DNA of 64,000 nucleotides, from assembly GCA_942492975.1 (NCBI GenBank), contig OW818655.1:2499281-2563280 (forward strand). The letters run 5' to 3'. Of the stretch, positions 37,479 through 51,917 are shown one piece after another. How positions within the stretch are numbered: the stretch's first letter is position 1; each line of letters starts with the position of its first letter. The DNA comes from an uncultured Anaerolineales bacterium (GTDB lineage Bacteria > Chloroflexota > Anaerolineae > Anaerolineales > Villigracilaceae). Under the pieces are notes generated by a model. That model was not told where the DNA came from. It worked only from the letters and a program-made list of their open reading frames with translations, and made no database searches. Made by a program: the position numbers and the translations under genes.

Positions 37479-38567
37479 ATGTATTCCAAAATCCGACCTT
37501 ATCTTTTCAAGCTCGAATCTGAACGCGCACATCTGTTGACCCTGAACGCGATCCGTCGGGTGGGGAACTTTACCCCCACCCGTTGGCTGCTCACACAGCT
37601 TTTCAAAGTCCGTGCAAAGCCCGTGGAGGCCTTTGGATTAACTTTCAAAAATCCAATTGGGATCGCTGCTGGCTATGACAAGGATGCCCGCGCCATTAAA
37701 GGTCTCGGCGCTTTGGGATTCGGCCACGTGGAAATAGGAACGATCACTCCCCGCCCTCAATCTGGCAACCCGTCCCCGCGCATTTTCCGTCTGATAGAAG
37801 ATGAAGCCGTGATCAACCGCATGGGATTCCCTTCACGCGGCTCTGAGTTTGTGCAAATGCAGCTCAATCCCTATCTTCGCCCCAGCGCAATGGAAAGATA
37901 TTTTGGGTTCGTCCCCCCAAACAAAAAAATGACGCCAAGAAAAATAGACAAGGGCAATCTCATCCTTGGCATTAACATTGGCAAAAATAAAGAAACACCC
38001 AACGAAGAAGCCGCACTGGATTACGTCGCTCTGGTGGACAACTTCTCACTCTACGCAGATTACTTCGCCATCAACATCAGTTCCCCGAACACCGCGGGAC
38101 TGCGCGCCTTGCAGGAACGAACTGCACTTGAAGATCTGCTGAAACACATCCACGAGCAGCGTGTGGTCAGTGAGAAATATCATGACAAGCGCCTGCCGCT
38201 TCTTGTCAAATTATCCCCAGATCTTTCTAATGCAGAGTTGGACGATGCGCTTGAAGTCATCCTCAATGCAAAGATGGACGGCGTCATCGTTACGAACACA
38301 ACTTTATCGCGCGAGGGATTGAGATCAAGCCTCAAGGGAGAAACAGGCGGCTTGAGCGGCAAACCACTGACAGTTAAGAGTGAAGCGGTTCTTTATCAAA
38401 CGATCAAGCGTATCAACGGAGCCATCCCTGTGGTGAGTGTGGGCGGAGTCATGAATCCTGATGATGCAAAACGCCGCCTCGATATGGGAGCGGCGCTGGT
38501 GCAGTTGTATACGGGGCTGGTTTATCACGGGCCCGGGCTAGTGAAAGAAATTTTGAAATCACTGTAA
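37479..38567 (+). CDS. pyrD: Dihydroorotate dehydrogenase (quinone), class 2
   Basis: GFGHVEIGTITP, NISSPNT and GGLSG motifs, with an N-terminal membrane-association extension. Confidence 0.92.
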   Translation: MYSKIRPYLFKLESERAHLLTLNAIRRVGNFTPTRWLLTQLFKVRAKPVEAFGLTFKNPIGIAAGYDKDARAIKGLGALGFGHVEIGTITPRPQSGNPSPRIFRLIEDEAVINRMGFPSRGSEFVQMQLNPYLRPSAMERYFGFVPPNKKMTPRKIDKGNLILGINIGKNKETPNEEAALDYVALVDNFSLYADYFAINISSPNTAGLRALQERTALEDLLKHIHEQRVVSEKYHDKRLPLLVKLSPDLSNAELDDALEVILNAKMDGVIVTNTTLSREGLRSSLKGETGGLSGKPLTVKSEAVLYQTIKRINGAIPVVSVGGVMNPDDAKRRLDMGAALVQLYTGLVYHGPGLVKEILKSL

Positions 38568-38581
38568 GAGAATTTTTGTGC

Positions 38582-39211
38582 CTACGAAGGCATGTATAAA
38601 CCGCCTGTCGCTTCCATCCAATCGGCGATCTTTTCGGTGGCAGATTGGATATTGTTATCTGAAACATCCAACTCAAGCAAAGGCAAAATTGATTCGCGGG
38701 CAAGCCTGCGGATCAATTTTTGTTCTTCGATGAAAAGGTTCAGATCATCGTATTGAGACGGGTTGCCCGAAACCTTGAGCCGTTCGTCGCGCGCGGCTTC
38801 GAAAGATTCGGGTGAGCGCGTTAGCAGCACAAGACGAAAATTCAGCGGGAGCAATCGTTCTTCCAGCCAGCGAAAATCATAATCTTTTTTATAGGTGTTC
38901 AATTGATACATGCGCGTGGACAGGTGAAAACGATCCACGATCCATGAATAATATTTTTGCAATTCAAAGAGCTTCACCCAGGTGGCGTAGGTTTCCATGG
39001 CAAGCGCTTCTTCCTGCGGCTCAAAGTTGATCAGCCCGCGCCCCCAGGGAAAGTTGGTGAATGCACACCATTCGCCAGAGATCAACGGCGAATGATATTT
39101 ATATTTGCGCGGCCCCACCACACGCGGGTGTTCATTGAGCGCGAATGCAATATCGGTTTTGAAGGTCAGGCGGGTGCCTTCGAGAATGATCTTGGGGGTA
39201 AGTTTGCTCAT
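38582..39211 (-). CDS. Hypothetical protein (209 aa)
   Basis: ORF track. ATGA overlap with the upstream TPR gene. No domain recognised. Confidence 0.6.
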   Translation of the reverse strand: MSKLTPKIILEGTRLTFKTDIAFALNEHPRVVGPRKYKYHSPLISGEWCAFTNFPWGRGLINFEPQEEALAMETYATWVKLFELQKYYSWIVDRFHLSTRMYQLNTYKKDYDFRWLEERLLPLNFRLVLLTRSPESFEAARDERLKVSGNPSQYDDLNLFIEEQKLIRRLARESILPLLELDVSDNNIQSATEKIADWMEATGGLYMPS

Positions 39212-40059
39212 GGTTGATCGATAAATTTCTCCAGTTCAGATTCCAGACTATAACCAAGGTTGCGTGCCTTGAGCAGGTATTGTTTTGCCTTCGCAAAATC
39301 CTGCACAGGGGATTCATCATAATAGGAAAAACCAAGATAATAATTTAACTCGGCATCACCCTGATAGGCTGGATAAGCCAGTTCAAAATAATTGACAGCA
39401 TTTTCCAGATCCTGCAAGGAAAAGTAATTATAGCCAATGAATATTTGTGCGTCTGCAATGTAGGAAGAATTCTGTGCCTTGTATAACCGCTCGGCTTCTT
39501 TAAGGCTATCAATGGAATTCTGGTATTGACCGATGTCGTAGTAGGCCATGCCAAGTCCAAAATAGCCTTCAGGATTTTCAGGAGCCATGAGACTCAATTG
39601 TTTGAAGGTGGAAATGGCTTCATCATATCTCCCCAACTGGCGGTAGGCATTGGCCAATCCCAAATAGGCTACATCATTCTCCGGGAAAACCTCAATCGAA
39701 CGCAAATACCAATGAATCGATTCTTCTGTTCTGCCAAGCCGTTTTAAATTCAAGCCAAGATTATCCATTGCATCACAGTATTCAGGATCAAGCTCGATGG
39801 CATTCTTATAAAGCTCAATTGCCCTTTCGTAATTTCCAGCCTGCTCCTCTGTAAGTCCTTGATTATAAGCATCCGTTGCACCTGGGATGTCTGAAGGACA
39901 GTACACATCCTCTTCGATCACACTGATTGTATATGTAGGTGTGAAAATCGGACCAGCCGCTGTGGTTGGAATAGCGGTGGGCGGTGTCAGGGATCTTGTA
40001 AGAAAAGAACAGGCTAAAGAACTAAGAACAAGCAAAATGGCGGACAAGTATTTTTTCAT
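39208..40059 (-). CDS. TPR repeat lipoprotein
   Basis: Lipobox LSSLAC and multiple TPR units. Start trimmed to MKKYLSAILL. Confidence 0.8.
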   Translation of the reverse strand: MKKYLSAILLVLSSLACSFLTRSLTPPTAIPTTAAGPIFTPTYTISVIEEDVYCPSDIPGATDAYNQGLTEEQAGNYERAIELYKNAIELDPEYCDAMDNLGLNLKRLGRTEESIHWYLRSIEVFPENDVAYLGLANAYRQLGRYDEAISTFKQLSLMAPENPEGYFGLGMAYYDIGQYQNSIDSLKEAERLYKAQNSSYIADAQIFIGYNYFSLQDLENAVNYFELAYPAYQGDAELNYYLGFSYYDESPVQDFAKAKQYLLKARNLGYSLESELEKFIDQP

Positions 40060-40211
40060 GGATTTCTCTCTTTTAGGCAATTCGAATAAATTCCATTTTC
40101 ACACCGATGCCCCTTGAGAAAATAGCCCATTCGTCCTGTTATGAAACTCTAACGAAACTCTGAAACGATTCCCTGCTACAGTTGTGGTATATTCGCGCAG
40201 TAGGTAACCTT

Positions 40212-40577
40212 ATGGAAGATAAAATCACAATCATTGAAGGTCCGCCCCCCGTTTTTGAACACGTCAACGACGGATGGGCAATGGGCTTGAACGAAAGCCC
40301 GAATTTGTCTGTTCCTGCGCTCACGCGCCTGCGAACATTCAACGGCCCCGCGTTGGTCGAAAGATGCTACAACGCCTGGCACAACAAGGCATCCATCCAG
40401 CTGCATTATCGCAACGACATGGGCCTTGAACAAACTGCACCCATCCTCGCCGCCCGTAATGTGGAAACTCCGGACGGACACGTTTTGCTGCTGTGGGTTT
40501 ACCTCGACAGCGAAAAAGTGGAATTTGAAATGGATGCAGGCGAAGACGATTTCTCAGACGACTTCCCCGACGAATAG
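40212..40577 (+). CDS. Hypothetical protein with acidic C-terminus (121 aa)
   Basis: Track ORF trimmed to MEDKITIIEG. Followed by a strong terminator. Confidence 0.55.
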   Translation: MEDKITIIEGPPPVFEHVNDGWAMGLNESPNLSVPALTRLRTFNGPALVERCYNAWHNKASIQLHYRNDMGLEQTAPILAARNVETPDGHVLLLWVYLDSEKVEFEMDAGEDDFSDDFPDE

Positions 40578-40586
40578 AGTTTACAA

Positions 40587-40625
40587 AAAAGTGACAGTCA
40601 CCTTTAAGGTGACTGTCACTTTTTC
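40587..40625 (+). terminator. Rho-independent terminator
   Basis: gtgacagtcacc-tttaa-ggtgactgtcac flanked by an A-run and a T-run. Confidence 0.85.
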
Positions 40626-40637
40626 TTAAGAGGATAC

Positions 40638-41408
40638 ATGACAACAACGTTTCTCTCCACGCTCGAATCTGGCACAGCAGTTCTGACGCTTAACCGCCCC
40701 GTGCGCGCCAACGCCTTTAACTTTGAAATGACCAATGAATTAAGAAACACCCTCGCCCAGGCAGAGAAAGACTCGAACGTGAGGTGCGTGGTCATCACTG
40801 GCGCGGGCAAAGTTTTCAGCGCAGGCCAGGACATCACCGAAATGAAACAGGGTGAAGCAATTTCGTACCGCGAGCATTTGGAGAAAACCTACAACCCGTT
40901 GATCCTGCAAATTCGCGGCATGGGCAAACCTGTCATCGCCGCAGTCAATGGAGCGTGCGCAGGCGCGGCCTTTGGAATTGCCCTCGCCTGTGACTTGCGC
41001 ATCGCGCACTCCAGCGCGTACTTCGTGGTGGGTTTCAGCGGCATTGCGCTCGCGCCTGATTCTGGCGTTTCCCTGTTGCTGCCAAAATATATCGGCCTCG
41101 GCCGTGCGCAGCAATATTTTTATTCCAACAAACCCATCCCCGCGCAATTGGGCTATGAATGGGGATTGGTCAATCAAGTAGGTGGATACAACTATCAGAA
41201 GCTAGTCATGCAAATTGCGGGCGAGCTGGCCGCAGGTCCGCGGGAGGCGTTTGCTTTGGGCAAGAAAGCTTTCAACGGGGCGATCCTGCCAAATTTGGAA
41301 GAGGCGCTCCACGATGAAGGCATCCTGCAAGATGAAGCGGGAAGATCAGCAGAGCATCGTGAAGGGGTGGCCGCATTTCTGGGAAAACGAAGGCCGAAGT
41401 ACGGATAA
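40638..41408 (+). CDS. Enoyl-CoA hydratase/isomerase (crotonase) family protein
   Basis: VVITGAGKVFSAGQDI and AAVNGACAGAAFGIALACD oxyanion-hole motifs. Confidence 0.9.
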   Translation: MTTTFLSTLESGTAVLTLNRPVRANAFNFEMTNELRNTLAQAEKDSNVRCVVITGAGKVFSAGQDITEMKQGEAISYREHLEKTYNPLILQIRGMGKPVIAAVNGACAGAAFGIALACDLRIAHSSAYFVVGFSGIALAPDSGVSLLLPKYIGLGRAQQYFYSNKPIPAQLGYEWGLVNQVGGYNYQKLVMQIAGELAAGPREAFALGKKAFNGAILPNLEEALHDEGILQDEAGRSAEHREGVAAFLGKRRPKYG

Positions 41409-41589
41409 ATCGCATCCTCCATTCCCCAAATGGGTTATAAAAAGCACGCAAAAAACGCCACTTTTGGTCAAAATATGTGGACTTTTGTCATATTGACGCA
41501 AGTTTGATTCTCGTGTAAATTTCATAGGCATTCGCGTTTTATTGGACAACAAAAATATGAATCAGCGTAATGACATACATCGTGATCAA

Positions 41590-41629
41590 AGCGGGCACCC
41601 TTCTTTCCCGGGGTGTCCGCTTATATTTT
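41590..41629 (+). promoter_or_regulatory. Terminator-like hairpin inside the gdh 5' region
   Basis: 10-bp stem gcgggcaccc / gggtgtccgc (one G-U) followed by TTATATTTT, 27 nt before the gdh ATG and about 180 nt after the previous stop. Confidence 0.4.
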
Positions 41630-41655
41630 CTCTACAACCTATTTAGGAGAACAAC

Positions 41656-42954
41656 ATGTCAGGACCCATTAATGCTTTTGAAATGGCGCAGAAACAGTTC
41701 GATGCTGTTGCCAAACAATTGAAACTCGATGCGGGCGTGTCTGAAGTTTTACGCTGGCCAATGCGCGAGTTTTCCTTCCGCATTCCCGTGCGTTTGGATG
41801 ACGGTTCACTCAAGGTTTTTCAGGGTTTCCGCGTACAGCATAACGATGCGCGCGGCCCCAACAAAGGCGGCATCCGCTTCCACCCTGCAGAGACGATGGA
41901 CACCGTCCGCGCGCTCGCCACGTGGATGACCTGGAAATGCGCCGTTGCAGACATCCCGCTTGGCGGCGGCAAGGGCGGCATCATTGTCGACCCGTCCACA
42001 TTGACCGTGAATGAAAAAGAAGAACTCTGCCGCGGTTGGGTACGCGCCATGTGGAAGAACATTGGTCCACGCAATGATGTACCCGCCCCGGATGTGGGCA
42101 CCACTCCTCAAATGATGGGCTGGATGATGGACGAATATTCCCGCCTCGTGGGTCAATACACCCCTGGCGTGTTCACCGGCAAGCCTCTTGGCGGCGGCGG
42201 TTCATTGGGCCGCACCGAAGCCACTGGCTACGGCGTGATCTACACCGTGCGCGAAGCGATGAAGCACATCGGCATGGATCCCAAAAAATCTGTCGCAGCT
42301 CTTCAGGGCTTTGGCAACGTTTCACAATATGCAGCCATTGGCTTCGTCGAAATGCTCGGCGGAACAGTTGCTTGTGTTTCCTGCTACGACCGTCACGATA
42401 AGAAAGCTTACACCTACAGCAAGAAGGGCGGCATCGACCCCCGCTTCCTGCTCTCCATCGTGGACGAGTACGGCACCATCGACAAGAAGAAAGCCATGGA
42501 CTCCGGTTACGAAGTTAGCGACGGCGACAAGTGGATCGAGATGGAAGCCGATGTATTGATCCCTGCCGCGCTCGAAGGCCAAGTCAATGCTGATACCGTC
42601 AAGAAAATGTCCAAGGGCATTCGCATTGTGGCTGAAGGCGCCAACGGCCCCACCACCCCCGAAGCAGATGAACATTTCAAGAAGAACAACATCTTCAACA
42701 TTCCAGATTTCCTCTGCAATGCTGGCGGCGTTACCACTTCCTACTTCGAACAGGTTCAGAACGACATGAACTTCTACTGGTCCAGAGAAGAAGTGCTCGA
42801 AAAACTTGACCAGAAGATGACCTCCGCTTTCCACGGCGTGCTCGACCGCAGTGAAAAAGAAAAGGTCTACATGCGCGACGCAGCCTACATGGTCGCCATC
42901 GACCGCGTAGTCAAAGCCATGGATCTTCGCGGCTGGTTGACTGGGAACGCGTAG
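41656..42954 (+). CDS. gdhA: Glutamate dehydrogenase (Glu/Leu/Phe/Val dehydrogenase family)
   Basis: Catalytic PLGGGKGG motif and the Rossmann motif GFGNVS. Confidence 0.93.
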   Translation: MSGPINAFEMAQKQFDAVAKQLKLDAGVSEVLRWPMREFSFRIPVRLDDGSLKVFQGFRVQHNDARGPNKGGIRFHPAETMDTVRALATWMTWKCAVADIPLGGGKGGIIVDPSTLTVNEKEELCRGWVRAMWKNIGPRNDVPAPDVGTTPQMMGWMMDEYSRLVGQYTPGVFTGKPLGGGGSLGRTEATGYGVIYTVREAMKHIGMDPKKSVAALQGFGNVSQYAAIGFVEMLGGTVACVSCYDRHDKKAYTYSKKGGIDPRFLLSIVDEYGTIDKKKAMDSGYEVSDGDKWIEMEADVLIPAALEGQVNADTVKKMSKGIRIVAEGANGPTTPEADEHFKKNNIFNIPDFLCNAGGVTTSYFEQVQNDMNFYWSREEVLEKLDQKMTSAFHGVLDRSEKEKVYMRDAAYMVAIDRVVKAMDLRGWLTGNA

Positions 42955-42973
42955 TAAAAAGATTTGAAACCAA

Positions 42974-43008
42974 AAAAGAGGATGTGCTTCGCGGCGCATC
43001 CTCTTTTT
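42974..43008 (+). terminator. Rho-independent terminator of gdh
   Basis: aagaggatgtgc-ttcgcg-gcgcatcctctt followed by TTT. Confidence 0.8.
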
Positions 43009-43087
43009 GATTCACGCTTCTTTCTTAATCTCGAACCTGTTTCTGTTTTTTCAAACAGTTTCTACGCTGAGGGTGTAAGAGCTATTT

Positions 43088-43151
43088 CATCCCTTCGGGA
43101 TTTGTGATCTCGCTGCCGTCATTTCTAGAATCCTGCCATCCCTTCGGGATT
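43088..43151 (+). repeat. Two exact copies of CATCCCTTCGGGATT (UUCG-tetraloop mini-hairpins)
   Basis: 43088-43102 and 43137-43151 are identical. Each folds as AUCC-C(UUCG)G-GGAU. Confidence 0.7.
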
Positions 43152-43223
43152 GAAATATGGAAGAATCTCATCTCATGGACATTTGATACAATCACTGGAA
43201 ATATTAGAAGTTATCTCAAAAGT

Positions 43224-43277
43224 GTCATCCTGAGCGATAGCGAAGGATCTCTACCTCGTTACAAGAGACCCTTCGGG
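43224..43277 (+). repeat. Dispersed intergenic repeat, copy 2 (inverted relative to copy 1)
   Basis: gtcatcctgagcgatagcgaaggatctctacctcgttacaagagacccttcgg matches the reverse complement of 13716-13768. Confidence 0.7.
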
Positions 43278-43311
43278 ATGGCGAAAACTATATTTTTGAG
43301 ACGGGTTCTAG

Positions 43312-43339
43312 CTGTTCTCTGTTCTCTGTTCTCTGTTCC
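43312..43339 (+). repeat. Tandem heptamer CTGTTCT x4 upstream of gcdH
   Basis: Read directly. Ends 33 nt before the gcdH ATG. Confidence 0.8.
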
Positions 43340-43372
43340 CCTATCTTCTCCACTCTCCAAACGAGGCAACTC

Positions 43373-44548
43373 ATGTCAAAACAATCTTTCAAATGGGACG
43401 ACCCCTTCCTGCTCAACGATCAACTCACAGACGAAGAACGCATGATCCGCGACACGGCGCGAAAATATTGTCAGGATAAGTTAATGCCGCGCATCCTTGA
43501 AGCGAATCGAAACGAAACTTTTGAGCGCAGTATCATGACCGAGATGGGAAATATCGGTTTGCTCGGCGCCACCATCCCTGAAGAATACGGCGGCGCAGGC
43601 TTGAACTATGTCTCCTACGGATTGATCGCCCGTGAAGTAGAGCGCGTGGACAGCGGCTATCGCAGCGCGATGAGTGTGCAAAGTTCGCTGGTGATGCATC
43701 CCATTTATGCATACGGTTCTGAAGAACAACGCAAAAAATATTTACCCAAACTCGCCAGCGGAGAATGGGTTGGCTGTTTCGGGTTGACCGAACCCAACCA
43801 TGGCAGTGACCCTAGCAGCATGGAAACCCGCGCCAAAAAAGTGGACGGCGGCTATATTTTGCACGGCAACAAAATGTGGATCACCAATTCGCCGATCGCG
43901 GATGTGTTTATTATTTGGGCAAAATTAGATGGCGAGATCCACGGTTTCATTCTTGAAAAAGGAATGAAAGGCTTGAGCGCGCCGAAGATCGAAGGCAAGT
44001 TCAGTCTGCGTGCCAGCATCACTGGCGAGATCGTGATGGAAGAAGTTTTTGTACCCGCTGAAAATTTACTCCCCAACGTCAGCGGACTAAAAGGTCCGTT
44101 TGGATGTTTGAACAAAGCCCGTTATGGAATTGCATGGGGCGCATTGGGTGCAGCAGAATTCTGCTGGCACGCGGCGCGGCAATACACATTGGACCGTCCG
44201 CAGTTTGGGCGGCCATTGGCGGCGAACCAGATCATTCAACTGAAACTGGCGAACATGATGACAGAAATAACATTGGGCTTGCAAGGCGCACTGCGCGTTG
44301 GCCGCCTGATGGACGAAGACAAATCCACGCCTGAGATGATCTCACTGATCAAGCGTAATTCGTGCGGCAAATCTTTGGATATTGCACGCATGTCTCGTGA
44401 TATGCACGGTGGCAACGGCATCTCGGATGAATTCCACGTGATACGGCATGTGATGAATCTGGAAGCGGTCAATACGTATGAAGGCACGCATGATATCCAC
44501 GCATTGATATTAGGCAGAGCACAGACAGGCATTCAGGCGTTTTCATAA
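43373..44548 (+). CDS. gcdH: Glutaryl-CoA dehydrogenase
   Basis: Long stretches match the GCDH sequence I recall ([51 protein letters not shown]). Confidence 0.93.
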
Positions 44549-44558
44549 ACCAGATGCC

Positions 44559-44593
44559 AAACCGCCGACGATATCTCGTCGGCGGTTTTTGTT
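44559..44593. terminator. Bidirectional terminator between gcdH and rhodanese gene
   Basis: aaaccgccgacg-atatct-cgtcggcggttt followed by a T-run. Confidence 0.85.
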
Positions 44594-44662
44594 TAAGGCG
44601 AATTTGTTAGAGCTTGATCCTGCTGGTGATGCAGAGTCAAACTGGGGCGGAGCATGAAGCGT

Positions 44663-45121
44663 TTATGGCTCCAGCAGAAAACCTGCATCCACCCAGGCGG
44701 CGAGTCCACCGAGGAGAGCATCTGCTTTGGTGTATCCGTTCTGTAAAAGGAGGAACGCCGCACGGGCGCTCGTGTGTTCACTCGGTCAGGTGCAGTAGGT
44801 AATGATCCACTGATCTTTTTCCAAAGTGAGGTTGCCAATATTATTTTCGAACTCATCCAAAGGAATGGAGATCGCTCCCTGCGCATGGCTGGCGGCGTAG
44901 GCTTCCGCGCTGCGCACATCCACGATGACGGCCTGGCCTGAGTCAAGCGCGGCTTTGGCATCCTCCACGGAGATGCGCGGAACGGCATCTTCTGTTTGCG
45001 GGATCACGACCGCTACAACAGGCTGCGCCGCGAATTCGTTCTGCGGCTGGGGCGCGGCACATGCGCTGATCGCAAGCAAAAACATGGCCGCTATTAATAG
45101 AATTTTTTTTGTTCCTCTCAT
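44663..45121 (-). CDS. Rhodanese-like sulfurtransferase lipoprotein with in-frame TGA at 44786-44788 (candidate selenocysteine; alternatively nonsense-disrupted)
   Basis: The track ORF stops at ...WIITYCT-TGA. The same frame continues PSEHTSARAAFLLLQNGYTKADALLGGLAAWVDAGFLLEP-TAA (44663), which completes a rhodanese domain. Lipobox LAISAC. The ATG at 45121 is preceded by AGAGG. Confidence 0.6.
44753..44771 (-). other. SECIS-like hairpin downstream of the in-frame UGA
   Basis: GAGCGCC-CGUGC-GGCGUUC (7 bp including one G-U) starts 14 nt after the UGA. It is extendable by GUGAA/UUUAC across a 5x5 internal loop. Confidence 0.4.
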
Positions 45122-45195
45122 GAACACCTCTATGATCTATATATAAAAATTCATCCCGCAATAGAACTGCGGGATGAATTAACGCACAGGAAAAA

Positions 45196-46998
45196 TTAGA
45201 TCTCGCAGAAACGGTCGATGCGCTTGCCGATGATCGCGAGGCTGTCATCCCAGAATTTGCGTGTGGTGATATCGATGCCAAAGCGTTTGGCAAGTTTGGC
45301 GGCGGTTTGCTCGCCCGTGGACGCCAGCAGGTTCTTGTAATCTTCCACAAAATCTTCGCCGCGTTGTTGATAGATGGCATACAAACCCGTAGCAAACAAC
45401 AACCCGAAGGCATACGGATAATTGTAGAAGGACAAGCCAGATGAATAGTAATGCGGCTTCCAGGTCCACATGAATTTTTGCAGATAGCGTTCGTCAATGC
45501 CATCGCCGTAGGCGGCTTTTTGCGCGCGCAGCATGATGTCGTTGAAATCGTCTGCAGAAAGTTCAGATTCTGCGCGGCGCTCAAAGACTTCCTTCTCGAA
45601 CAGATAGCGCGAATAAATATCCACAACCACCTGGCCCGCGCCTTGAATCTGCGCTTCGAGGACGGCCAGTTCTTCCTGTGGATCTTTGGTGGTGGCGAGC
45701 ACAGCTTCGGTGACGATGGTTTCACACATGGTTGAAGCAGTTTCGGCCAGGGTCATGGGCGTGAGTTGCTGCAAGACTGTTTTGTTCGCCTGATATGCAC
45801 ATTCATTGTGGAATGCATGTCCCAATTCATGCGCCAGCGTGCTGACCTGATCGAACGAGCCGTCAAAGTTGCACAGAATGCGGCTTTCCTTCACGCCCTG
45901 CACTTCGGTACAAAATGCGCCGCCGCGTTTTCCTTCGCGTTGTTCGGCATCGATCCAGTTGCTGTCAAATGCGCGTTTGGCAAAGGCGGCCAGATCTGGC
46001 GAGAATTTTCCGAAATTCTCAAGGATGAAATCGCGTGCCTCTTCGAAAGAGTACACTTTATCGGTGGCACCAAGAGGCGCAAAAATATCCCACCACGCAA
46101 GTTTATCCTTGCCGATCTTCTTCGCCTTCGCGTCGAAATATTTGCGGAACATCGGGAAGGAACCCTGCATGGCTTCGAGCATGGCGTTGAGAGTCTTGCG
46201 GTCCATGCGCGCTGCTTCAATGGAGGAATGGATGGCATCCTTGCGGCCGCGTTTTTTGTTTAACACATTCGCTTCGCCCTTGACCCCGTTCAGGCAGGCC
46301 GCCAATGTTTCTTTCACTCCCTCCCAGGCTGCGCTCTCCGCTTCATATCCGCGGCGGCGTGTGGCCTCATCGGGATGGGAACGCAGGTTGATCAGCGCGG
46401 GCATGGGCATCTTCTGCATTTTGCCGTCCAGCTCAAAGTCAACAGAAAGCTGCGAAGTGACTGTGCCTTGCAGTTTGCCAAAGGCATTGCCGCCGCTGAG
46501 TGACAATTCAGCCGCGAGCATTTCCTCGGCTTCGCTCATCAAATATTTGCTTTGTTCGGCGGCTTCCTTCAACATGAACGCATGCGCCTTCGCGGATGGA
46601 TTCAGTTCCACCACCTTGCCAAGTTTTGGAGCGATCGTTCCCAACCAGGCTTTGAACTGGGTATAGAGTGTATCCATTGGCAAACTGGCCTGCTCAAACT
46701 CTGAAAGAGTTTTCATGGCGAGCTTGTCTCGTGAGTTGGTGGTGACAAAGGAATAAATAAAAGGCGCGATCGTGGAGGAAAGCGTTTGAATTTTATTGAT
46801 GCGGTCGATCGCCTCGCCGACCAGCACCGCCAGATCCTTGTCTTTGGATTTGGCGGTTGCCTTGCTCAACTTGCCTTTGAAGAACCTGTCCAAAGCAGAA
46901 ACCTGTTTTTTGTAATCTGCGATGGCAGCCTTGAATTCGTCCGATTCAAGCGAGGGATAGATATTGCTTAGATCCCAATGTGGGGCAGAAAGAGTCAT
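45196..46998 (-). CDS. M3B oligoendopeptidase F family protein (second paralog)
   Basis: HELGHAFH zinc motif, 600 aa, SD AAGGAG. Confidence 0.9.
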   Translation of the reverse strand: MTLSAPHWDLSNIYPSLESDEFKAAIADYKKQVSALDRFFKGKLSKATAKSKDKDLAVLVGEAIDRINKIQTLSSTIAPFIYSFVTTNSRDKLAMKTLSEFEQASLPMDTLYTQFKAWLGTIAPKLGKVVELNPSAKAHAFMLKEAAEQSKYLMSEAEEMLAAELSLSGGNAFGKLQGTVTSQLSVDFELDGKMQKMPMPALINLRSHPDEATRRRGYEAESAAWEGVKETLAACLNGVKGEANVLNKKRGRKDAIHSSIEAARMDRKTLNAMLEAMQGSFPMFRKYFDAKAKKIGKDKLAWWDIFAPLGATDKVYSFEEARDFILENFGKFSPDLAAFAKRAFDSNWIDAEQREGKRGGAFCTEVQGVKESRILCNFDGSFDQVSTLAHELGHAFHNECAYQANKTVLQQLTPMTLAETASTMCETIVTEAVLATTKDPQEELAVLEAQIQGAGQVVVDIYSRYLFEKEVFERRAESELSADDFNDIMLRAQKAAYGDGIDERYLQKFMWTWKPHYYSSGLSFYNYPYAFGLLFATGLYAIYQQRGEDFVEDYKNLLASTGEQTAAKLAKRFGIDITTRKFWDDSLAIIGKRIDRFCEI

Positions 46999-47050
46999 TT
47001 GTTCTCCTTGTTAATTGAAAATATACAGTCAAGTATACCGTGATGGAAAT

Positions 47051-47088
47051 AAAAAAACACCTGCCTGAGAAGGGTCTCAGGCAGGTGT
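47051..47088 (-). terminator. Rho-independent terminator of beta-helix gene
   Basis: 14-bp perfect stem acacctgcctgaga / tctcaggcaggtgt, followed by T7 on the minus strand. Confidence 0.88.
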
Positions 47089-47106
47089 TCGGGACATTGA
47101 GCGATT

Positions 47107-49230
47107 CTATTTACTTACCAGCACAAACCTGCCGCCAAAGTTGGTGAGCGCTTCGAAGTACGCATCACCGTTCATGTAGCCGCCGTTGATCACGGAACGC
47201 CCGTCTTCAAACGTTGCATCCTTGAGGTCCACCCATTCGCTGCCAGTCCAATACAGGATGGCGAGGGAGGCGGAATTGAACTCCGCAGGGATGAGGAAAC
47301 TAACGACGACCAAACCGTCCAAAGCAGTGTCGCTTCCCACGGGACTTTGATCTGCCAGCATTCCAGAGACATATTCCACGCCTTCGGGCAGAGCGCCCGG
47401 CAGGGCATCGTTCGTGAGCGGATTAAGAGAAGCCGATCCGCTGGTTGGGCATTTGAAGATAACCTGATCTCCATTCGGCAGAATGAGCACAGTGCCTGAG
47501 AACAGAACACAATCCAGCTCCGCGCTGCCGCCGCTCACGCGGACGATCTGCAAGGGCAATCCAGCGATGGTCTTATTGCTTGAACCTGCAGGGGCACAGT
47601 CTGTTGAATTTTCAACCAGTGTGCCGCCGGTCTGGAGTAAGTCACCAGAAGTGTTATTTGCAAATGTGACCCCATTAAGCGTGAGTACGCCGTTCAATAT
47701 AGCATTCAAACCATAGCCGCCGTTGTCGTAGATGCTGTCACAGGTAATGGTGATGTTTTGGGGTGCGTCTAGGTACAGACCTTCAACCGCGTTCGATGCA
47801 GCGGTAACGTTGTTGATGGTGATGTCGCTGTCGGAGTAAGCCTCCAAGCCATACCTGTTATTCAGGTTGAATACAGTTGTGCCACTCAGGGTGATGCTGC
47901 CAATACCATAGCTGTTGTCTAAGTAGGCCCCGTCATAATTCTTATTCCCATTGGCCGTGATGTTGTTGACGGTGATGTTGCGCGAGGAGAAAGCCTCCAA
48001 GCCAGACCAGTAGTTCCCGTTGAATTCATTCGTGCCGGTCAGGGTGATGTTACCGAAGGCATCGAGGGAGACACCGTCCCAATTCAGATTCTCATTAGCG
48101 GTGATGTTGTTGATGGTGATATTGCCCGCGTTAGAGGAAGCCACCAAACCACTGTAGTAGTTCCCGTTGAATTTATTCGTACCGGTCAGCGTGATATCGC
48201 CGGTACCATATGCTACAAGAAAGGCCCCGTCAAAATTCTTATTCCCATTGGCGGTGATGTTGTTGATGGTGATATCGCCCGTGGAGGAGGCAGCCGTCAA
48301 GCCAGTCTCGTAGTTCAGATTGAAAGTGTTCGTACCGTTCAGGGTGATGTTGCCGCTACCAGCTACGTTATATAAGTAGGCTCCCCCCAAGCTTTTATTC
48401 TCGTTGGCGGTGATGTTGTTGAGGGTGATGTCGCCTTTGGAGGCAGCCTGCAAGCCCCACCTGTTATTCAGGTTGAATTCATTCGTACCGGTCAGGGTGA
48501 TATTGCCGGTGCCAAAGGTGTTGTCCAGATAGGCGCCGCTTCCGCTCGTATTATTGTTGGATTTGACGTCCATAAGGCTGATGTTTCCGGTTGTCATTAC
48601 CGTGATTCCGTCTCCGGTTGTCGCGCCGTCCACGGTGATATTGTTGATGGTGACGTTGGCTGTCCAGTTAGTGACAGTCACTGGCACCGAGAAGACTGAA
48701 TTACCAGAGAAGGTGATCGTACTGTTCAGTGTAGTCGTTCCATTCCATCCGCCTTGCAGGGTCAGGCTGTTATCTTTTAGTTGATCTATATTGGGGTTTG
48801 TTCCATCAAAAGTCACATCATTTGTATTGTATGTGACTGGTGTGTAAAAATAAATAATACCAGCTTCATCTTTGGAAGCAAGCAGGGGCAGAAGATCGGT
48901 CACAGTCAAGGCGTTGACACAATCCGCAGTGACGGTGGTGTTTGCCGCAGGGCACCACATCGGATCGCCTTCTGCAATAATGGTCACTGCTTCTTCAGCC
49001 GCCAGCGGTTCAAGGCTGCCTTCTTCATTAATTACAACGATCTGGGTGTCCTCAGGCAGCTGCTCAAAGACTTCTGCAACCGTGAGTTCCTCTTCCACCA
49101 CAACGGGTTCTTCTGTTGCGGGCGGCGGGGTTCCTTCATCCGCAAACACGGTGACGGGGGTCACCAAATTCGCAAGCAAGGTTAATAAAACGATCAATGT
49201 CGTAAAGAGCAAGCGGTTGGTTTGTTTCAT
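47107..49230 (-). CDS. Secreted/anchored beta-helix repeat protein (paralog of 33072-35387)
   Basis: Shares ADEGTPPP.TEEP, GDPMWCP, LILPNGD..F.CP, a W.G.EW.DL module and the C-terminal FVLVSK with the other copy. Confidence 0.8.
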   Translation of the reverse strand: MKQTNRLLFTTLIVLLTLLANLVTPVTVFADEGTPPPATEEPVVVEEELTVAEVFEQLPEDTQIVVINEEGSLEPLAAEEAVTIIAEGDPMWCPAANTTVTADCVNALTVTDLLPLLASKDEAGIIYFYTPVTYNTNDVTFDGTNPNIDQLKDNSLTLQGGWNGTTTLNSTITFSGNSVFSVPVTVTNWTANVTINNITVDGATTGDGITVMTTGNISLMDVKSNNNTSGSGAYLDNTFGTGNITLTGTNEFNLNNRWGLQAASKGDITLNNITANENKSLGGAYLYNVAGSGNITLNGTNTFNLNYETGLTAASSTGDITINNITANGNKNFDGAFLVAYGTGDITLTGTNKFNGNYYSGLVASSNAGNITINNITANENLNWDGVSLDAFGNITLTGTNEFNGNYWSGLEAFSSRNITVNNITANGNKNYDGAYLDNSYGIGSITLSGTTVFNLNNRYGLEAYSDSDITINNVTAASNAVEGLYLDAPQNITITCDSIYDNGGYGLNAILNGVLTLNGVTFANNTSGDLLQTGGTLVENSTDCAPAGSSNKTIAGLPLQIVRVSGGSAELDCVLFSGTVLILPNGDQVIFKCPTSGSASLNPLTNDALPGALPEGVEYVSGMLADQSPVGSDTALDGLVVVSFLIPAEFNSASLAILYWTGSEWVDLKDATFEDGRSVINGGYMNGDAYFEALTNFGGRFVLVSK
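47790..48590 (-). repeat. In-frame tandem repeats of about 46 aa (about 140 bp), 5-6 units (GNITLTGTN.FN.N...GL.A.S..GDITINNITANGNKN.DGA.L)
   Basis: Seen in the translated protein. Coordinates are approximate. Confidence 0.7.
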
Positions 49231-49424
49231 TTGAATTTATGTCCCTGTTCCAAAATATATATCCCGACCCATATCGTAACGTATTATAAGTCACGGTGAT
49301 TACTCGAGCAACGCCAAATCTCCCTTCTGTAAGTCAATTGCAGGTAAAACAACAAGTTTGGAACTTTTTTGTAGTTTTTCAGTCTTTTTTGGAGTACAGT
49401 TAATATAGAAACTGGAGGCATGTT

Positions 49425-49901
49425 ATGAAACAAGATAAATTTCTAACCGGGATCCTGATCGGCATTGGCGTGTTGATCGTGCTCGCAGTGGCGCTGTTCT
49501 TCACGCGCCAGGATAAACGCGATTACATCGCAGAGACCGGCCCCGATGCCGTGGTGCATAATTATGTTCTGGCAGTTTTGAACAAGGATTATCAAAAAGC
49601 CTACGGCTATCTCGCAGATCTGGAACACAAACCCACCTATGAAGAGTTCCGCCAATCCTTCTTCAATGGCATGGTCAATCCCGGAGATGTAGGCATGGAT
49701 ATTGGCGCGGTGGATATCCACAACGACGAAGCGGTTGTATCACTTTCTGTTTACTACTCCAATACCGACCCGTTCTCCAGCCGTTATGCCAGCGAAGATC
49801 GTGCCCTGCTGGTATTGCAAAATGACGAGTGGAAAATAAATTCCATGCCGTATAACTTCTGGGATTACAACTGGTATCAGGAAGCCTTCAAACCTTATTA
49901 A
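49425..49901 (+). CDS. Membrane-anchored hypothetical protein (158 aa)
   Basis: SD TGGAGG and an N-terminal TM segment LTGILIGIGVLIVLAVALFF. Confidence 0.6.
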   Translation: MKQDKFLTGILIGIGVLIVLAVALFFTRQDKRDYIAETGPDAVVHNYVLAVLNKDYQKAYGYLADLEHKPTYEEFRQSFFNGMVNPGDVGMDIGAVDIHNDEAVVSLSVYYSNTDPFSSRYASEDRALLVLQNDEWKINSMPYNFWDYNWYQEAFKPY

Positions 49902-49994
49902 TAGTTCGCCAAACTCCGTACCTGGGAGCAGCATCCACAGATATTGTCATTGCGATCCGCAACATGACCCATCGCAATGACGGAAGGTAAAACC

Positions 49995-51917
49995 ATGAAA
50001 ACAATTAGACGACTTTACTTTTACGCTGTTGCCTTCATCAGCATTGAAGTAGTGGTATGGGGCGGCATCAGCCTGCTCCGTTCCATTTTTAACGCAAACG
50101 CGATCATAGACAGCGCGTCCACATTGGCACAGGCATTGTCACTCATTCTTGTAGGCCTGCCAATCTTCCTTGTGCATTGGCTATGGGCGCAGCGCGTCTC
50201 CGCAAAAGATGATGATGAAAAAACCGCAAGCCTGCGCGCCATATTTCTTTATGGCATCCTGCTTGCCACGCTCATCCCCGTTGTGCAGAATTTCCTCGCG
50301 CTGATAGACCGCACCTTCCTCAACGCAGCAAACCTGTTCGCGTATCGCGCCGTAATTGGCGGTACACAAACATGGATAGACAACGTCATCGCCATCGTCA
50401 TCAACCTGCTACTCGCCGCCTATTTCTGGAACATCCTCAAAGAAGAATGGCGCACGCTTGCCGAAACTGAAACCTTCTCCGAGATTCGCCGCCTGTATCG
50501 CTTCATCTGGATGCTATACGGTTTGCTCATGACAATTTTCGGCGCGCAACAGGCACTCGATTACGCCTTCACATTATCCACTGGCGGTGTGCTCGGGTCC
50601 ATTGGACGTGAAACCGCTGTCAATGCGATTGCTCTGCTTGTGGTCGGCGCACCGATCTGGTTCTTTTCGTGGCGCATCCTGCAGGATGTTTTGCCTGATC
50701 CTGCTGAAAAAGAATCTTATCTACGCCTCGGCATTCTTTACCTGCTCACCCTTGGCAGTGTCATCCTCGTATTGACGGCTGGCGGCAACCTGATCTACAT
50801 GCTCCTGATGTACGCGATAGGAGATGGCAAGAGTTTCTCCGAATTCATGCAGGATATCGGCGGTCCCATTTCGATCGCGGTGCCGTTTGGGGTCGTTTGG
50901 GCATACTATGGAAAATGGCTCAACCAGCAATTCGCATTTGACACAGACGAACCGCGCCGCGCAGGCAAGCAGAGATTGTATTTCTACATTCTCTCCTTCC
51001 TTGGCCTTGCGGCAACATTCTTTGCAGTCACATCCCTGCTTTCGATCATCATCAACCTGCTCTCTGCAAAGACCTACTTAAGCATCAGCGGATACGCTTC
51101 TTCGCTTTCCAGCGCGTTGGCCGCTCTGGTTGTGGGGCTTCCACTTTGGTTAATGACCTGGCGCCCTGCGCAGGCAGATGCCCTGGAAGATGGTCCAGCT
51201 GGAGATCATGCACGGCGTTCCGTGATCCGCAAAGTATATTTATATCTGGTGCTGTTCGTCTCCGTTATCGGCGGAATGATCGCGGCGGGCACTTTGATCT
51301 TTACATTGATCAATGCCGCACTGGGCGGTGAGACCAGCGACTTTGCAAACTCCATTCTCAATAGTTTGCAGTTGTTGATCCTGTTCGTTGTGCTGCTGCT
51401 ATATCACCTGTCTGCATTGCGCAAGGATGGCACAGCCCGCGCCGATGCATTGGAAACCAAACAGGAAAATTTCAAACTGCTTGTATTGGATAACAGTGAC
51501 GGCAAATTTGGCGAAGCGGTGCGTGTTGTGTTTGCGAAGCGCGCACCCAAAGTGCCAGTGACCGTGGTCAATGTCAAAGACGGGATTCCTGCGGATGTAC
51601 AGGCAGATGCCGTGGTGATACCAGGTTCCCTGTCATTGAACATGCCACAAAATGTGGCAGCGTGGGTCAACTCCTTTAATGGAAGCAGGCTCATCGTCCC
51701 GGATGAAGCGGCGGGCGTGTACTGGCTGAATGATTTCGGGCAGGTGGCTGATTCAGCGAAGGCATTGGCCGAAGGGCAACACATCCGCCCGCAATCGGCA
51801 GCAAAGACAACTTCCGCATGGACGTATATTGCCTATGTTCTGGCTGGTTTGTTTGCGTGCCAGATCCTGTTTAGTTTGACGATGTTGGGTGTTTCGATGG
51901 TAACTGGCGGGTTCTAA
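49995..51917 (+). CDS. Large polytopic membrane protein with repeated two-helix modules (DUF5671-like impression)
   Basis: Recurrent R(R)LY.Y...F(I/L)S modules, a soluble segment and a final TM. The start at the second ATG is preceded by GGAAGG. Confidence 0.7.
   Translation: MKTIRRLYFYAVAFISIEVVVWGGISLLRSIFNANAIIDSASTLAQALSLILVGLPIFLVHWLWAQRVSAKDDDEKTASLRAIFLYGILLATLIPVVQNFLALIDRTFLNAANLFAYRAVIGGTQTWIDNVIAIVINLLLAAYFWNILKEEWRTLAETETFSEIRRLYRFIWMLYGLLMTIFGAQQALDYAFTLSTGGVLGSIGRETAVNAIALLVVGAPIWFFSWRILQDVLPDPAEKESYLRLGILYLLTLGSVILVLTAGGNLIYMLLMYAIGDGKSFSEFMQDIGGPISIAVPFGVVWAYYGKWLNQQFAFDTDEPRRAGKQRLYFYILSFLGLAATFFAVTSLLSIIINLLSAKTYLSISGYASSLSSALAALVVGLPLWLMTWRPAQADALEDGPAGDHARRSVIRKVYLYLVLFVSVIGGMIAAGTLIFTLINAALGGETSDFANSILNSLQLLILFVVLLLYHLSALRKDGTARADALETKQENFKLLVLDNSDGKFGEAVRVVFAKRAPKVPVTVVNVKDGIPADVQADAVVIPGSLSLNMPQNVAAWVNSFNGSRLIVPDEAAGVYWLNDFGQVADSAKALAEGQHIRPQSAAKTTSAWTYIAYVLAGLFACQILFSLTMLGVSMVTGGF

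What the first reader, a model, noticed from the sequence alone, without database searches (positions are those of the whole stretch)
44663..45127. Rhodanese-like lipoprotein read through an in-frame TGA: candidate selenoprotein with SECIS-like hairpin
The ORF track ends this gene at TGA (44786-44788), giving ...KDQWIITYCT*. The same frame then continues for 40 more codons (PSEHTSARAAFLLLQNGYTKADALLGGLAAWVDAGFLLEP) to a TAA at 44663-44665.

That extension is exactly what a rhodanese domain needs after its active-site loop, including the GG..AW..AG ending. So this is not a frameshift. A single codon interrupts an otherwise intact domain, inside a C-T-[TGA]-P-S-E motif. As I recall, related single-domain rhodaneses carry C-x-C-P-x-E there, so TGA sits at a Cys-equivalent position.

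Fourteen nt after the UGA the mRNA can form GAGCGCC-CGUGC-GGCGUUC (44753-44771). This has a 7-bp stem and a 5-nt loop with G at the second position. It can be extended by GUGAA/UUUAC across a symmetric 5x5 internal loop. The distance from the UGA to the loop is about 21 nt, which fits the general geometry of bacterial SECIS elements.

To my recollection, rhodanese-related sulfurtransferases appear in computational lists of bacterial selenoprotein families. I cannot verify that here. The alternatives are a recent nonsense mutation (TGY to TGA) or a sequencing error.
Basis: partly seen in the sequence, partly recalled or inferred. Interest (0 to 1): 0.8.

Follow-up and report, generated by a model that had tools for sequence, protein, structure and literature searches.

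The report
Selenocysteine rhodanese lipoprotein, mis-called as truncated
The "stop" inside this small sulfur-transferase-like gene almost certainly encodes selenocysteine: the same TGA and the same RNA hairpin occur in all 162 related genes examined, so automatic annotation truncates a real selenoprotein, one close to an already predicted family.

Summary

- **Gene:** the minus-strand gene 45121-44663 is one 152-codon rhodanese lipoprotein gene with an in-frame TGA at 44788-44786.
- **Conservation:** all 162 orthologous DNA sequences examined (Anaerolineales/Chloroflexota MAGs and metagenomes) have TGA at that column. It is never TGC, TGT, TAA or TAG. A conserved 39-43-codon extension follows, and the true terminators are mixed.
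- **Hairpin:** (G)AGCGCC-CGUGC-GGCGUU(C) starts 14 nt after the UGA. It is almost invariant even at synonymous sites. 135 of 138 distinct sequences meet all four published bacterial SECIS criteria.
- **Cys homologs:** close relatives carry YC-x-C-P-x-E, giving a Sec/Cys pair.
- **Position of Sec:** it is not the canonical rhodanese nucleophile, which is C110. It lies two residues later, forming a C-x-U centre.
- **Closest family:** NCBIfam NF041203 "rhodanese_LYCAU (seleno)protein", the CxU form predicted in 2005. The score is 83 bits against a cut-off of 115, so this is an unannotated sister clade.

Not testable here: selA, selB, selC and selD in this genome.

Verdict: a new member of a known kind, of moderate interest.

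The parts
44663..45121 (-). Full-length coding sequence of the rhodanese-like (seleno)lipoprotein: 152 codons including Sec112, ATG 45121-45119, true stop TAA 44665-44663
   Evidence: Read-through is conserved in 162 of 162 orthologs. The GAGG ribosome-binding site at 45130-45127 is read directly.
45059..45121 (-). Signal peptide and lipobox (MRGTKKILLIAAMFLLAISA-C21); Cys21 is the predicted lipidation site
   Evidence: A20 and C21 are invariant in alignment A1. A signal peptide plus [AGS]-C lipobox pattern is present in 148 of 153 complete N-termini.
44687..44971 (-). Rhodanese homology domain (residues 51-145), complete only if the TGA is read through
   Evidence: Pfam PF00581, 55.9 bits, profile positions 1-101 of 102. 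Profile hits to solved rhodaneses.
44792..44794 (-). Cys110 codon (TGC): equivalent of the canonical rhodanese catalytic Cys at the end of the WIITY strand
   Evidence: Invariant in A1 and A2. Aligns with the catalytic-loop Cys of 6mxv and 3tp9 in the profile alignment.
44786..44788 (-). In-frame UGA, predicted Sec112 (C-T-U motif)
   Evidence: TGA in 162 of 162 orthologs, never another stop or a Cys codon. Cys at this column in YCxCPxE homologs.
44753..44771 (-). Bacterial SECIS apical hairpin GAGCGCC-CGUGC-GGCGUUC: 6 conserved pairs plus a variable outer pair, and a 5-nt loop with GU at positions 2-3
   Evidence: RNAalifold consensus. Synonymous-site entropy of 0-0.17 bits in codons +6 to +11. 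The six core pairs are paired in at least 99.3% of sequences, the loop is CGUGC in 135 of 138, and 135 of 138 pass the bSECIS criteria.
45148..45180 (-). Terminator-like hairpin plus T-run after the upstream M3 peptidase gene; separates that gene from the rhodanese gene
   Evidence: 15-pair stem, TTTATATATA tail.
44559..44588 (.). Palindromic terminator-like hairpin between the convergent rhodanese and acyl-CoA dehydrogenase genes
   Evidence: 13-pair stem, 8 GC pairs. An A-run precedes it and a T-run follows, so it could act in both directions.

Best explanation
This is an intact gene for a 152-residue, membrane-anchored (lipoprotein) single-domain rhodanese in which UGA 44788-44786 is decoded as selenocysteine.

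Mechanism of decoding (inferred from the established bacterial pathway): while the ribosome sits on ACC-UGA-C, the mRNA 14-32 nt downstream folds into the hairpin (G)AGCGCC-CGUGC-GGCGUU(C). SelB carrying GTP and Sec-tRNA(Sec) binds its apical loop and delivers Sec in competition with release factor 2. Translation then continues for 40 codons to TAA and completes the rhodanese fold.

Mechanism of the protein (inferred): Cys110 occupies the canonical rhodanese nucleophile position at the end of the central strand. Sec112 lies two residues later, in an active-site loop that is two residues longer than in GlpE or PspE. Together they most likely form a redox-active C-x-U selenenylsulfide centre. 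After export and lipidation at Cys21, this centre would act on the outer face of the membrane, as a sulfur or selenium transferase or as a thiol-type reductase.

Shown here: the conserved UGA, the coding constraint after it, the constrained SECIS-type hairpin, the Sec/Cys pairing, the rhodanese fold assignment and the lipobox. Inferred: actual Sec insertion, SelB dependence, the selenenylsulfide chemistry and the substrate.
For: (1) 119 of the 120 best database homologs end at exactly ...[TP]YCT. The one full-length call has 'W' there, which is TGA in its DNA.
(2) 82 of 82 metagenome or window sequences and 80 of 80 genome sequences have TGA at the column. The collecting patterns (QWIITYC[T] and an N-terminal motif) did not require TGA.
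(3) The downstream 39-43 codons are conserved as protein while varying synonymously: Gly+17, Gly+27, Ala+34 and Gly+35 are 97-100% conserved with codon entropy 1.8-1.9 bits. True stops are mixed, 85 TAA, 40 TAG and 37 TGA.
(4) Codons +6 to +11 (AGC GCC CGU GCG GCG UUC) have codon entropy of 0-0.17 bits although they are 2- to 6-fold degenerate. This is exactly the hairpin.
(5) The stem variants seen keep pairing: C-G to U-A, and C-G to U.G. 135 of 138 distinct sequences meet all four bSECIS criteria of PMC13188914 Fig. 2: loop 5 nt, stem 6-7 bp, G at loop position 2, spacing 21 nt, MFE at or below -7.5.
(6) Cys homologs carry YC-x-C-P-x-E (P0249, P0253, P0225, P0273, P0208, P0259, P0193).
(7) The best NCBIfam family is NF041203 'rhodanese_LYCAU, rhodanese-related (seleno)protein', matched over profile positions 11-124 of 126. 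The CxU rhodanese form is listed as a predicted selenoprotein in PMC13188914 and PMC9312934.
(8) TGA is an ordinary stop in this genome: it ends 5 of 37 long window ORFs.
(9) The locus is stable and vertically inherited: the M3 peptidase gene lies directly upstream in 114 loci.
(10) Chloroflexi are on record as selenoprotein users (PMC1794560 Table 2; PMC5736913).
Against: No Sec machinery was seen. There is no tRNA-Sec and no SelA, SelB or SelD homolog in the 64-kb window or in 1.46 Mb of ortholog flanks. This is weak evidence, because these genes need not be linked and the rest of the genome was not readable.

No second selenoprotein gene was found in the window or the flanks.

The hairpin is almost invariant, so true covariation rests on one compensatory change and one wobble change.

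The protein scores below NCBI's cut-off for NF041203 (83.2 against 115).

The structure model was too poor after the Sec column to place C110 and U112 in space. No experimental data exist for this family.
Confidence: 0.9

Rival explanations
1. Recent nonsense mutation, pseudogene or sequencing error: a TGY Cys codon became TGA in this genome, and the gene is dead or mis-read.
For: In this window alone the picture is indistinguishable from a point mutation, and the hairpin's stability is unremarkable (z = -0.89).
Against: 162 of 162 independent orthologs from different species and samples carry the same TGA, followed by an intact, selectively constrained downstream frame. None has TGC or TGT.
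Confidence: 0.01
2. Read-through without selenocysteine: the UGA in the leaky ACC-UGA-C context is decoded by a near-cognate or suppressor tRNA (Trp, Cys, Gly or Arg), or TGA is reassigned in this lineage. The hairpin merely stimulates read-through.
For: A JGI gene call (P0003) and six other database relatives show W at the column. The base after the UGA is C in 158 of 162, and UGA-C is known from E. coli work as a weak termination context (my own knowledge). The Sec machinery was not observed.
Against: TGA serves as the real terminator of the same gene in 37 of 162 orthologs and of 5 of 37 long ORFs in the window, so it is not reassigned. The nearest relatives have Cys at this column, the classic Sec/Cys signature. 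The hairpin meets the SelB-type bSECIS geometry. The best-matching curated family is a selenoprotein family with the same CxU motif. The 'W' in P0003 comes from the gene caller and is not a TGG codon.
Confidence: 0.05
3. Termination is genuine. The 111-residue product is the functional protein, and the conserved hairpin is a transcription terminator or attenuator, or another RNA or DNA signal.
For: All gene callers stop here. The simple scan flags the hairpin plus CUCCUUUUAC as terminator-like.
Against: The truncated product lacks the last third of the rhodanese fold (Pfam positions 69-102). The 40 downstream codons show amino-acid conservation with free synonymous change and end in a real stop at a conserved length. 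The U-rich tail is not conserved, for example CUCAUGAUGAAC in several orthologs. Strong terminators already lie further downstream.
Confidence: 0.02

Closest known systems
NCBIfam NF041203 'rhodanese_LYCAU, rhodanese-related (seleno)protein'. [quoted passage not shown]
   Same: It is a single rhodanese domain with one Sec in a C-x-U motif at the same loop position. It is the best-scoring family for the window protein and for every relative tested, and the match covers nearly the whole profile. Its function is unknown and it is a prediction only.
   Different: The score is 83 bits (76 with X at the Sec position) against a curated cut-off of 115, and all clade members and Cys relatives score 63-94 bits. 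The motif is TYCTU-P-x-E-H-T-S-A-R rather than LYCAU. This clade has a lipoprotein signal and is confined to Anaerolineales in the samples seen. None of the 120 best public protein records reads through the TGA as Sec.
Other rhodanese-type selenoproteins: forms 1, 2 and 4 (UxxS, UxxG) and TsoB (form 5, UxxxxU), as listed in PMC13188914
   Same: They have the rhodanese fold, with Sec in the active-site loop encoded by UGA.
   Different: By their motifs, those forms have Sec without a Cys two residues upstream (the review's table gives motifs only). Here the canonical Cys110 is kept and Sec is an extra residue at +2. TsoB is a 572-position fusion profile and matches only weakly (19 bits).
Canonical single-domain rhodaneses GlpE (1gmx) and periplasmic PspE (2jtq) of E. 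coli
   Same: Same fold and size, with the catalytic Cys at the end of the central strand. PspE is also extracytoplasmic. The family profile hits them at E = 2e-14 and 2e-13.
   Different: Their six-residue C-x4-[ST] cradle loop has a single Cys. Here the loop is two residues longer and holds a second redox residue (Sec, or Cys in relatives), so simple persulfide transfer is not the only possible chemistry.
BH2092 protein of Bacillus halodurans (PDB 3nhv, 3o3w)
   Same: It is the closest solved single-domain structure by sequence, and it aligns without gaps through the loop: IITYCWGPACNGATKAA against IITYCTUPSEHTSARAA. It has the same extended loop length and the same YC and P positions.
   Different: Its second Cys is at +5 (CxxxxC), not +2. 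It contains no Sec, and it is a structural-genomics entry with no assigned function.
E. coli fdhF/fdnG SECIS elements and the consensus bSECIS model
   Same: The element lies immediately downstream of the UGA inside the coding region. It has a small apical loop with G then U among its first positions, spacing of 21 nt (allowed range 16-37) and a stable upper stem (criteria from PMC13188914).
   Different: There is no sequence resemblance to the E. coli elements (my own knowledge of fdhF) and no bulged U in the conserved stem. The loop ends C...C cannot form the N1-N2 pair that the consensus pattern mostly shows. SelB binding is untested.

Membership tests
Bacterial selenoprotein gene (Sec-UGA plus bSECIS) | In-frame UGA conserved among orthologs, with protein-coding conservation continuing after it | tested here: met
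   162 of 162 have TGA. The downstream 39-43 codons are conserved as protein with synonymous variation, and the true stops are mixed.
Bacterial selenoprotein gene (Sec-UGA plus bSECIS) | Stem-loop meeting the bSECIS model: loop 3-9 nt, upper stem 4-16 bp, G in the first two loop positions, 16-37 nt from the UGA, MFE at or below -7.5 kcal/mol (PMC13188914 Fig. 2) | tested here: met
   135 of 138 distinct sequences pass all four criteria. The three failures miss only the MFE cut-off when the bare 19-nt hairpin is folded. Synonymous sites under the stem-loop are frozen.
Bacterial selenoprotein gene (Sec-UGA plus bSECIS) | Homologs with Cys aligned to the UGA (Sec/Cys pair) | tested here: met
   YCxCPxE in P0249, P0253, P0225, P0273, P0208, P0259, P0270 and P0193. 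C112 is an invariant column in A2.
Bacterial selenoprotein gene (Sec-UGA plus bSECIS) | selA, selB, selD and tRNA-Sec (selC) present in the same genome | not testable with these tools
   Only the window and ortholog flanks (1.46 Mb) could be read. No tRNA-Sec and no SelA/B/D homolog (the one GTPase hit is LepA).
Bacterial selenoprotein gene (Sec-UGA plus bSECIS) | Selenium demonstrably incorporated (75Se labelling or mass spectrometry) | not testable with these tools
   This needs an experiment. The reviews list the CxU rhodanese form among predicted selenoproteins only (PMC9312934).
NCBIfam NF041203 rhodanese_LYCAU (seleno)protein | HMM score at or above the curated equivalog cut-off (115 bits) | tested here: not met
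   83.2 bits with C at the Sec column and 76.3 with X. P0003 scores 76.9, and other relatives score 63-94.
NCBIfam NF041203 rhodanese_LYCAU (seleno)protein | Best-matching family, full-length match, and the C-x-U motif | tested here: met
   Top hit for all 13 proteins scanned, matched over profile positions 11-124 of 126. The motif is Y-C-T-U here against L-Y-C-A-U in the family name. The CxU motif is listed in PMC13188914.
Pfam PF00581 Rhodanese domain | Score above the gathering threshold over the whole domain, with Cys at the catalytic-loop start | tested here: met
   55.9 bits against a 22.2 cut-off, positions 1-101 of 102. C110 aligns with the loop Cys of 6mxv and 3tp9.
Rhodanese selenoproteins with Sec at the canonical nucleophile (forms 1, 2 and 4: UxxS, UxxG) | Sec replaces the catalytic Cys itself | tested here: not met
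   The profile alignment puts the canonical Cys at C110, and the Sec column falls in a two-residue insertion. The single-sequence alignments were ambiguous, and the 3-D model was too poor to confirm.
Bacterial lipoprotein | N-terminal signal peptide ending in a lipobox with an invariant Cys | tested here: met
   MRGTKKILLIAAMFLLAISA|C. A20 and C21 are invariant. 148 of 153 orthologs fit a PROSITE-like lipobox pattern. Lgt/LspA processing was not tested.

The most novel reading that the evidence does not exclude
The Anaerolineales TYCTU clade is a functionally distinct, lipid-anchored extracytoplasmic selenoenzyme and not merely a divergent copy of the LYCAU family. In it Sec is the partner of the canonical rhodanese Cys in a C-x-U selenenylsulfide switch. 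It would work outside the cytoplasm, for example in handling sulfane sulfur, selenium or oxyanions at the cell surface. It is present in at least 179 species yet annotated in none. Its almost invariant 18-nt SECIS would define a lineage-specific SelB recognition element that could be used to find the remaining Anaerolineales selenoproteins.
Probability: 0.25. Interest if true: 0.5.

Novelty: new member of a known kind. Interest (0 to 1): 0.35.

Why it matters
**Annotation.** Every public gene call seen for this family (119 of the 120 best hits, and GCA_030824405.1) truncates the protein at Thr111. The one exception translates the TGA as Trp. A curated model or a lower cut-off would therefore repair at least several hundred records in an abundant group of wastewater, groundwater and soil bacteria (Ca. 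Villigracilis and relatives).

**Biology.** The finding implies that this whole Anaerolineales clade decodes Sec. It adds an exported, lipid-anchored member to the poorly understood CxU rhodanese selenoproteins, for which no function has been shown.

**Method.** The frozen synonymous sites give an unusually clean natural example of a SECIS overlapping a coding region. That makes it a good substrate for SelB-SECIS recognition studies outside Proteobacteria.

It does not overturn anything. CxU rhodanese selenoproteins were predicted in 2005 and have a curated NCBIfam model.

Tried and rejected
- **Sec machinery.** ARAGORN and Rfam on the window, ARAGORN on all 161 loci, and tblastn of E. coli SelA, SelB and SelD against the window plus 1.46 Mb of flanks. 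Nothing was found. The one GTPase hit in L159 is LepA. I ran no further search on SelA/B/D. E. coli or PDB queries would list only their own close relatives among the best 120, so the chance of reaching Anaerolineales was low.
- **A second selenoprotein as indirect proof of Sec decoding.** An all-against-all Sec/Cys-pair scan of the loci gave only antisense artefacts and two isolated in-frame stops (L032 TAG, L084 TGA). A bSECIS-style scan of the window found four other structural matches, all antisense to or out of frame within longer ORFs.
- **Structure.** The allowed alignment (P0003 plus truncated hits) gave pLDDT 46-64 after the Sec column, so no fold search was run, and the C110/U112 question rests on sequence profiles.
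- **Source genome.** P0001 is not on record as a called gene. A neighbouring protein led only to a 19-kb MAG contig. The window genome is not among the 80 best species representatives.
- **Taxonomy of the Cys and 'W' relatives.** The listing of cluster members gave no organism names.
Rejected.
- **Functional link from synteny.** Rejected. The conserved neighbours extend for many genes on both sides, which indicates clade-wide synteny and not an operon, and a terminator separates the peptidase gene from this one.

Full report
**1. The observation**

On the minus strand an ORF starts at GTG 45127. The more likely start is ATG 45121, which has GAGG five bases upstream. The ORF ends at TGA 44788-44786 after ...KDQWIITYCT. 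The same frame runs on for 40 codons (PSEHTSARAAFLLLQNGYTKADALLGGLAAWVDAGFLLEP) to TAA 44665-44663.

With the TGA read through, the product matches Pfam Rhodanese over positions 1-101 of 102 (55.9 bits). The truncated product reaches only position 68.

The hairpin GAGCGCC-CGUGC-GGCGUUC is at 44771-44753, 14 nt after the UGA. On its own it is not remarkable: the MFE z-score against shuffles is -0.89. So the description is accurate, but the single sequence cannot show whether it means anything.

**2. The same TGA is in every relative**

A search of 5.8 billion proteins gave 861 hits. Of the best 120, 119 end at exactly ...[TP]YCT, which is the same truncation. The one full-length record (P0003) has W at the column, and its DNA reads TGA.

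I then fetched DNA using patterns that did not require a TGA (QWIITYC[T] and an N-terminal motif). This gave 80 metagenome loci out of 434 relatives and 80 genome loci out of 179 species representatives. All of the latter are Anaerolineales or Chloroflexota MAGs, including several Candidatus Villigracilis.

With L001 and the window, 162 of 162 sequences have TGA at the column. It is never TGC, TGT, TAA or TAG. The frame then stays open for 39-43 codons and ends in a real stop: 85 TAA, 40 TAG and 37 TGA.

So TGA is both the conserved internal codon and an ordinary terminator in these same genes. It also ends 5 of 37 long ORFs in the window. That excludes a private mutation, a sequencing error, and a lineage-wide reassignment of TGA.

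**3. The extension is coding**

After the TGA, invariant residues such as Gly+17, Gly+27, Ala+34 and Gly+35 use all four codons freely, with codon entropy of 1.8-1.9 bits. That is the pattern of selection on the protein. The extension supplies the helix and the GG..AW..AG end that the rhodanese fold needs.

**4. An RNA constraint sits exactly on the hairpin**

Codons +6 to +11 (Ser-Ala-Arg-Ala-Ala-Phe) are AGC GCC CGU GCG GCG UUC in nearly every sequence. Their codon entropy is 0-0.17 bits although they are 2- to 6-fold degenerate.

Among 138 distinct 48-nt segments:
- The six core pairs are paired in at least 99.3%, and the loop is CGUGC in 135.
- The outermost G-C pair is variable (paired in 80%).
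- The stem changes seen keep pairing: C-G to U-A in one sequence and C-G to U.G in another. One sequence has an A.G mismatch at the top pair.

RNAalifold returns the same six-pair stem.

Tested against the four criteria of the published bacterial SECIS model (PMC13188914, Fig. 2 legend), 135 of 138 pass all four. The loop is 5 nt, the stem is 6-7 bp, G is at loop position 2 followed by U, the spacing is 21 nt, and the MFE is at or below -7.5. The other three fail only on the MFE of the bare hairpin.

Because the stem hardly varies, the case for the RNA element rests mainly on the frozen synonymous sites and the geometry, not on covariation.

**5. Sec/Cys pair, and where the Sec sits**

An exhaustive search of 1.84 billion representatives with P0003 found single-domain relatives with a true Cys at the column. 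These are YCTCPAEESS, YCSCPAEQTS, YCSCPNEHSA, YCTCLNEETS and others.

Single-sequence alignments to solved rhodaneses could not say which of the two positions matches the catalytic Cys. A family profile aligns the canonical loop Cys of 6mxv and 3tp9 with C110 and treats two loop residues, including the Sec column, as an insertion. BH2092 (3nhv, 3o3w) shares the longer loop without gaps.

So Sec112 is the second member of a C-x-[C/U] pair, two residues after the canonical nucleophile. An AlphaFold model could not confirm this. The only alignment the tool accepted has no depth after the TGA, and the model is poor there, with pLDDT 46-64.

**6. Other features**

- The N-terminus (MRGTKKILLIAAMFLLAISA-C) is a signal peptide with a lipobox. 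A20 and C21 are invariant, and 148 of 153 complete orthologs fit a lipobox pattern. The mature protein is therefore predicted to be lipid-anchored outside the cytoplasm.
- The gene is bracketed by terminator-like hairpins at 45180-45148 and 44559-44588.
- The M3 peptidase gene lies directly upstream on the same strand in 114 loci. The convergent acyl-CoA dehydrogenase and glutamate dehydrogenase genes are also widely conserved. This is clade-wide synteny and indicates vertical inheritance, not a functional operon.
- The UGA context is ACC-UGA-C. Codon -1 is ACC in 99%, and the next base is C in 158 of 162.

**7. What could not be shown**

The window has one tRNA gene (Leu) and no Rfam hit beyond it. 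None of the 161 loci has a tRNA-Sec. E. coli SelA, SelB and SelD find nothing in the window or in 1.46 Mb of flanks, and the single GTPase hit is LepA. The rest of the source genome could not be read. A neighbouring protein led only to a 19-kb contig of GCA_030824405.1, where the rhodanese is again called as 111 residues.

Two scans for a second selenoprotein gene found none. These negatives are weak, because sel genes need not be linked to their client genes.

The indirect support is twofold. First, the hairpin has been kept almost unchanged across a clade whose proteins are only 50-76% identical, which implies a working reader of that hairpin. Second, there are published counts of selenoproteins in Chloroflexi (PMC1794560, Table 2: 3 families) and predicted Sec-containing formate dehydrogenases in relatives of the Anaerolineae (PMC5736913).

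**8. Comparison with what is known**

Rhodanese-type selenoproteins are established predictions. PMC13188914 lists five forms. 'Form 3' has the motif CxU, corresponds to NCBIfam NF041203, and traces back to the 2005 bSECISearch paper. PMC9312934 calls it 'COG0607 form 2 (CxU)' and places it among predicted proteins of unknown function.

NF041203 ('rhodanese_LYCAU, rhodanese-related (seleno)protein') is the best family for the window protein, at 83.2 bits over profile positions 11-124 of 126. The curated cut-off is 115. Every relative tested, whether from the Sec clade, a 'W' record or a Cys homolog, also has it as best family, at 63-94 bits.

So the window gene works like that family and has the same motif at the same place, but it fails the family's own membership threshold. 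It belongs to a sister group that no pipeline annotates.

**9. Verdict**

This is a genuine, conserved UGA-Sec gene with a bacterial SECIS, mis-called as a truncated ORF. My confidence that the UGA is decoded as Sec is about 0.9. The proposed C110-U112 selenenylsulfide chemistry and the extracytoplasmic role are inferences.

It is a new, unannotated member of a known kind of selenoprotein. It is useful for annotation and as a clean SECIS example, but it is not a surprise to specialists. Interest is 0.35.

Noticed in passing
window 44785-44791 (minus strand), and the same position in L001-L161: The UGA context is ACC-UGA-C. The codon before the UGA is ACC in 99% of sequences although Thr has four codons. 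The base after the UGA is C in 158 of 162, whichever amino acid follows (Pro, Gln or Leu). This suggests selection on the context for Sec insertion over termination.
   Followed up: partly
window 45148-45180 (minus strand) and 44559-44588: Two strong terminator-like hairpins bracket the gene. One follows the upstream M3 peptidase gene. The other is a palindromic one shared with the convergent acyl-CoA dehydrogenase gene. No sigma-70-like promoter was found in between by the simple scan.
   Followed up: partly
window 44753-44771 (minus strand): The SECIS hairpin plus the following CUCCUUUUAC is itself flagged as terminator-like by the consensus scan. The U-rich tail is not conserved in orthologs, so this is probably incidental.
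   Followed up: partly
L001:441-443 (P0003); P0162, P0164, P0168, P0172, P0204, P0243: Some public gene calls show Trp at the Sec column. For P0003 the codon is TGA, so the caller used a code in which TGA means Trp. Six more relatives in the representative library also show W there and may be further Sec forms outside the TYCTU clade. Their DNA could not be fetched.
   Followed up: partly
L116 (JADZCC010000016.1), N-terminus of the ortholog: One ortholog lacks the lipobox Cys (…LLLVVAAWSVFASAQ…), so it would be a secreted or signal-anchored variant and not a lipoprotein.
   Followed up: no
L032 near 1726 (minus strand) and L084 near 4501 (minus strand): Isolated in-frame stops occur in otherwise conserved housekeeping genes of other contigs: a TAG at a Leu column of the acyl-CoA dehydrogenase gene, and a TGA at a variable non-Cys column of dnaN. 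These are probably assembly errors or pseudogenes, not recoding.
   Followed up: partly
window about 37479-55615, and the flanks of L082-L161: Gene order around the rhodanese is conserved across many Anaerolineales genomes. It includes DHODH, enoyl-CoA hydratase, glutamate dehydrogenase, acyl-CoA dehydrogenase, rhodanese, M3 peptidase, a DUF5671 gene, dnaN and a PPDK_N-domain gene. The beta-helix protein gene at 47107-49230 is the exception, found in only one other locus.
   Followed up: partly
window 5689-5771 (minus strand): The only tRNA gene in the 64-kb window is tRNA-Leu(CAA).
   Followed up: no
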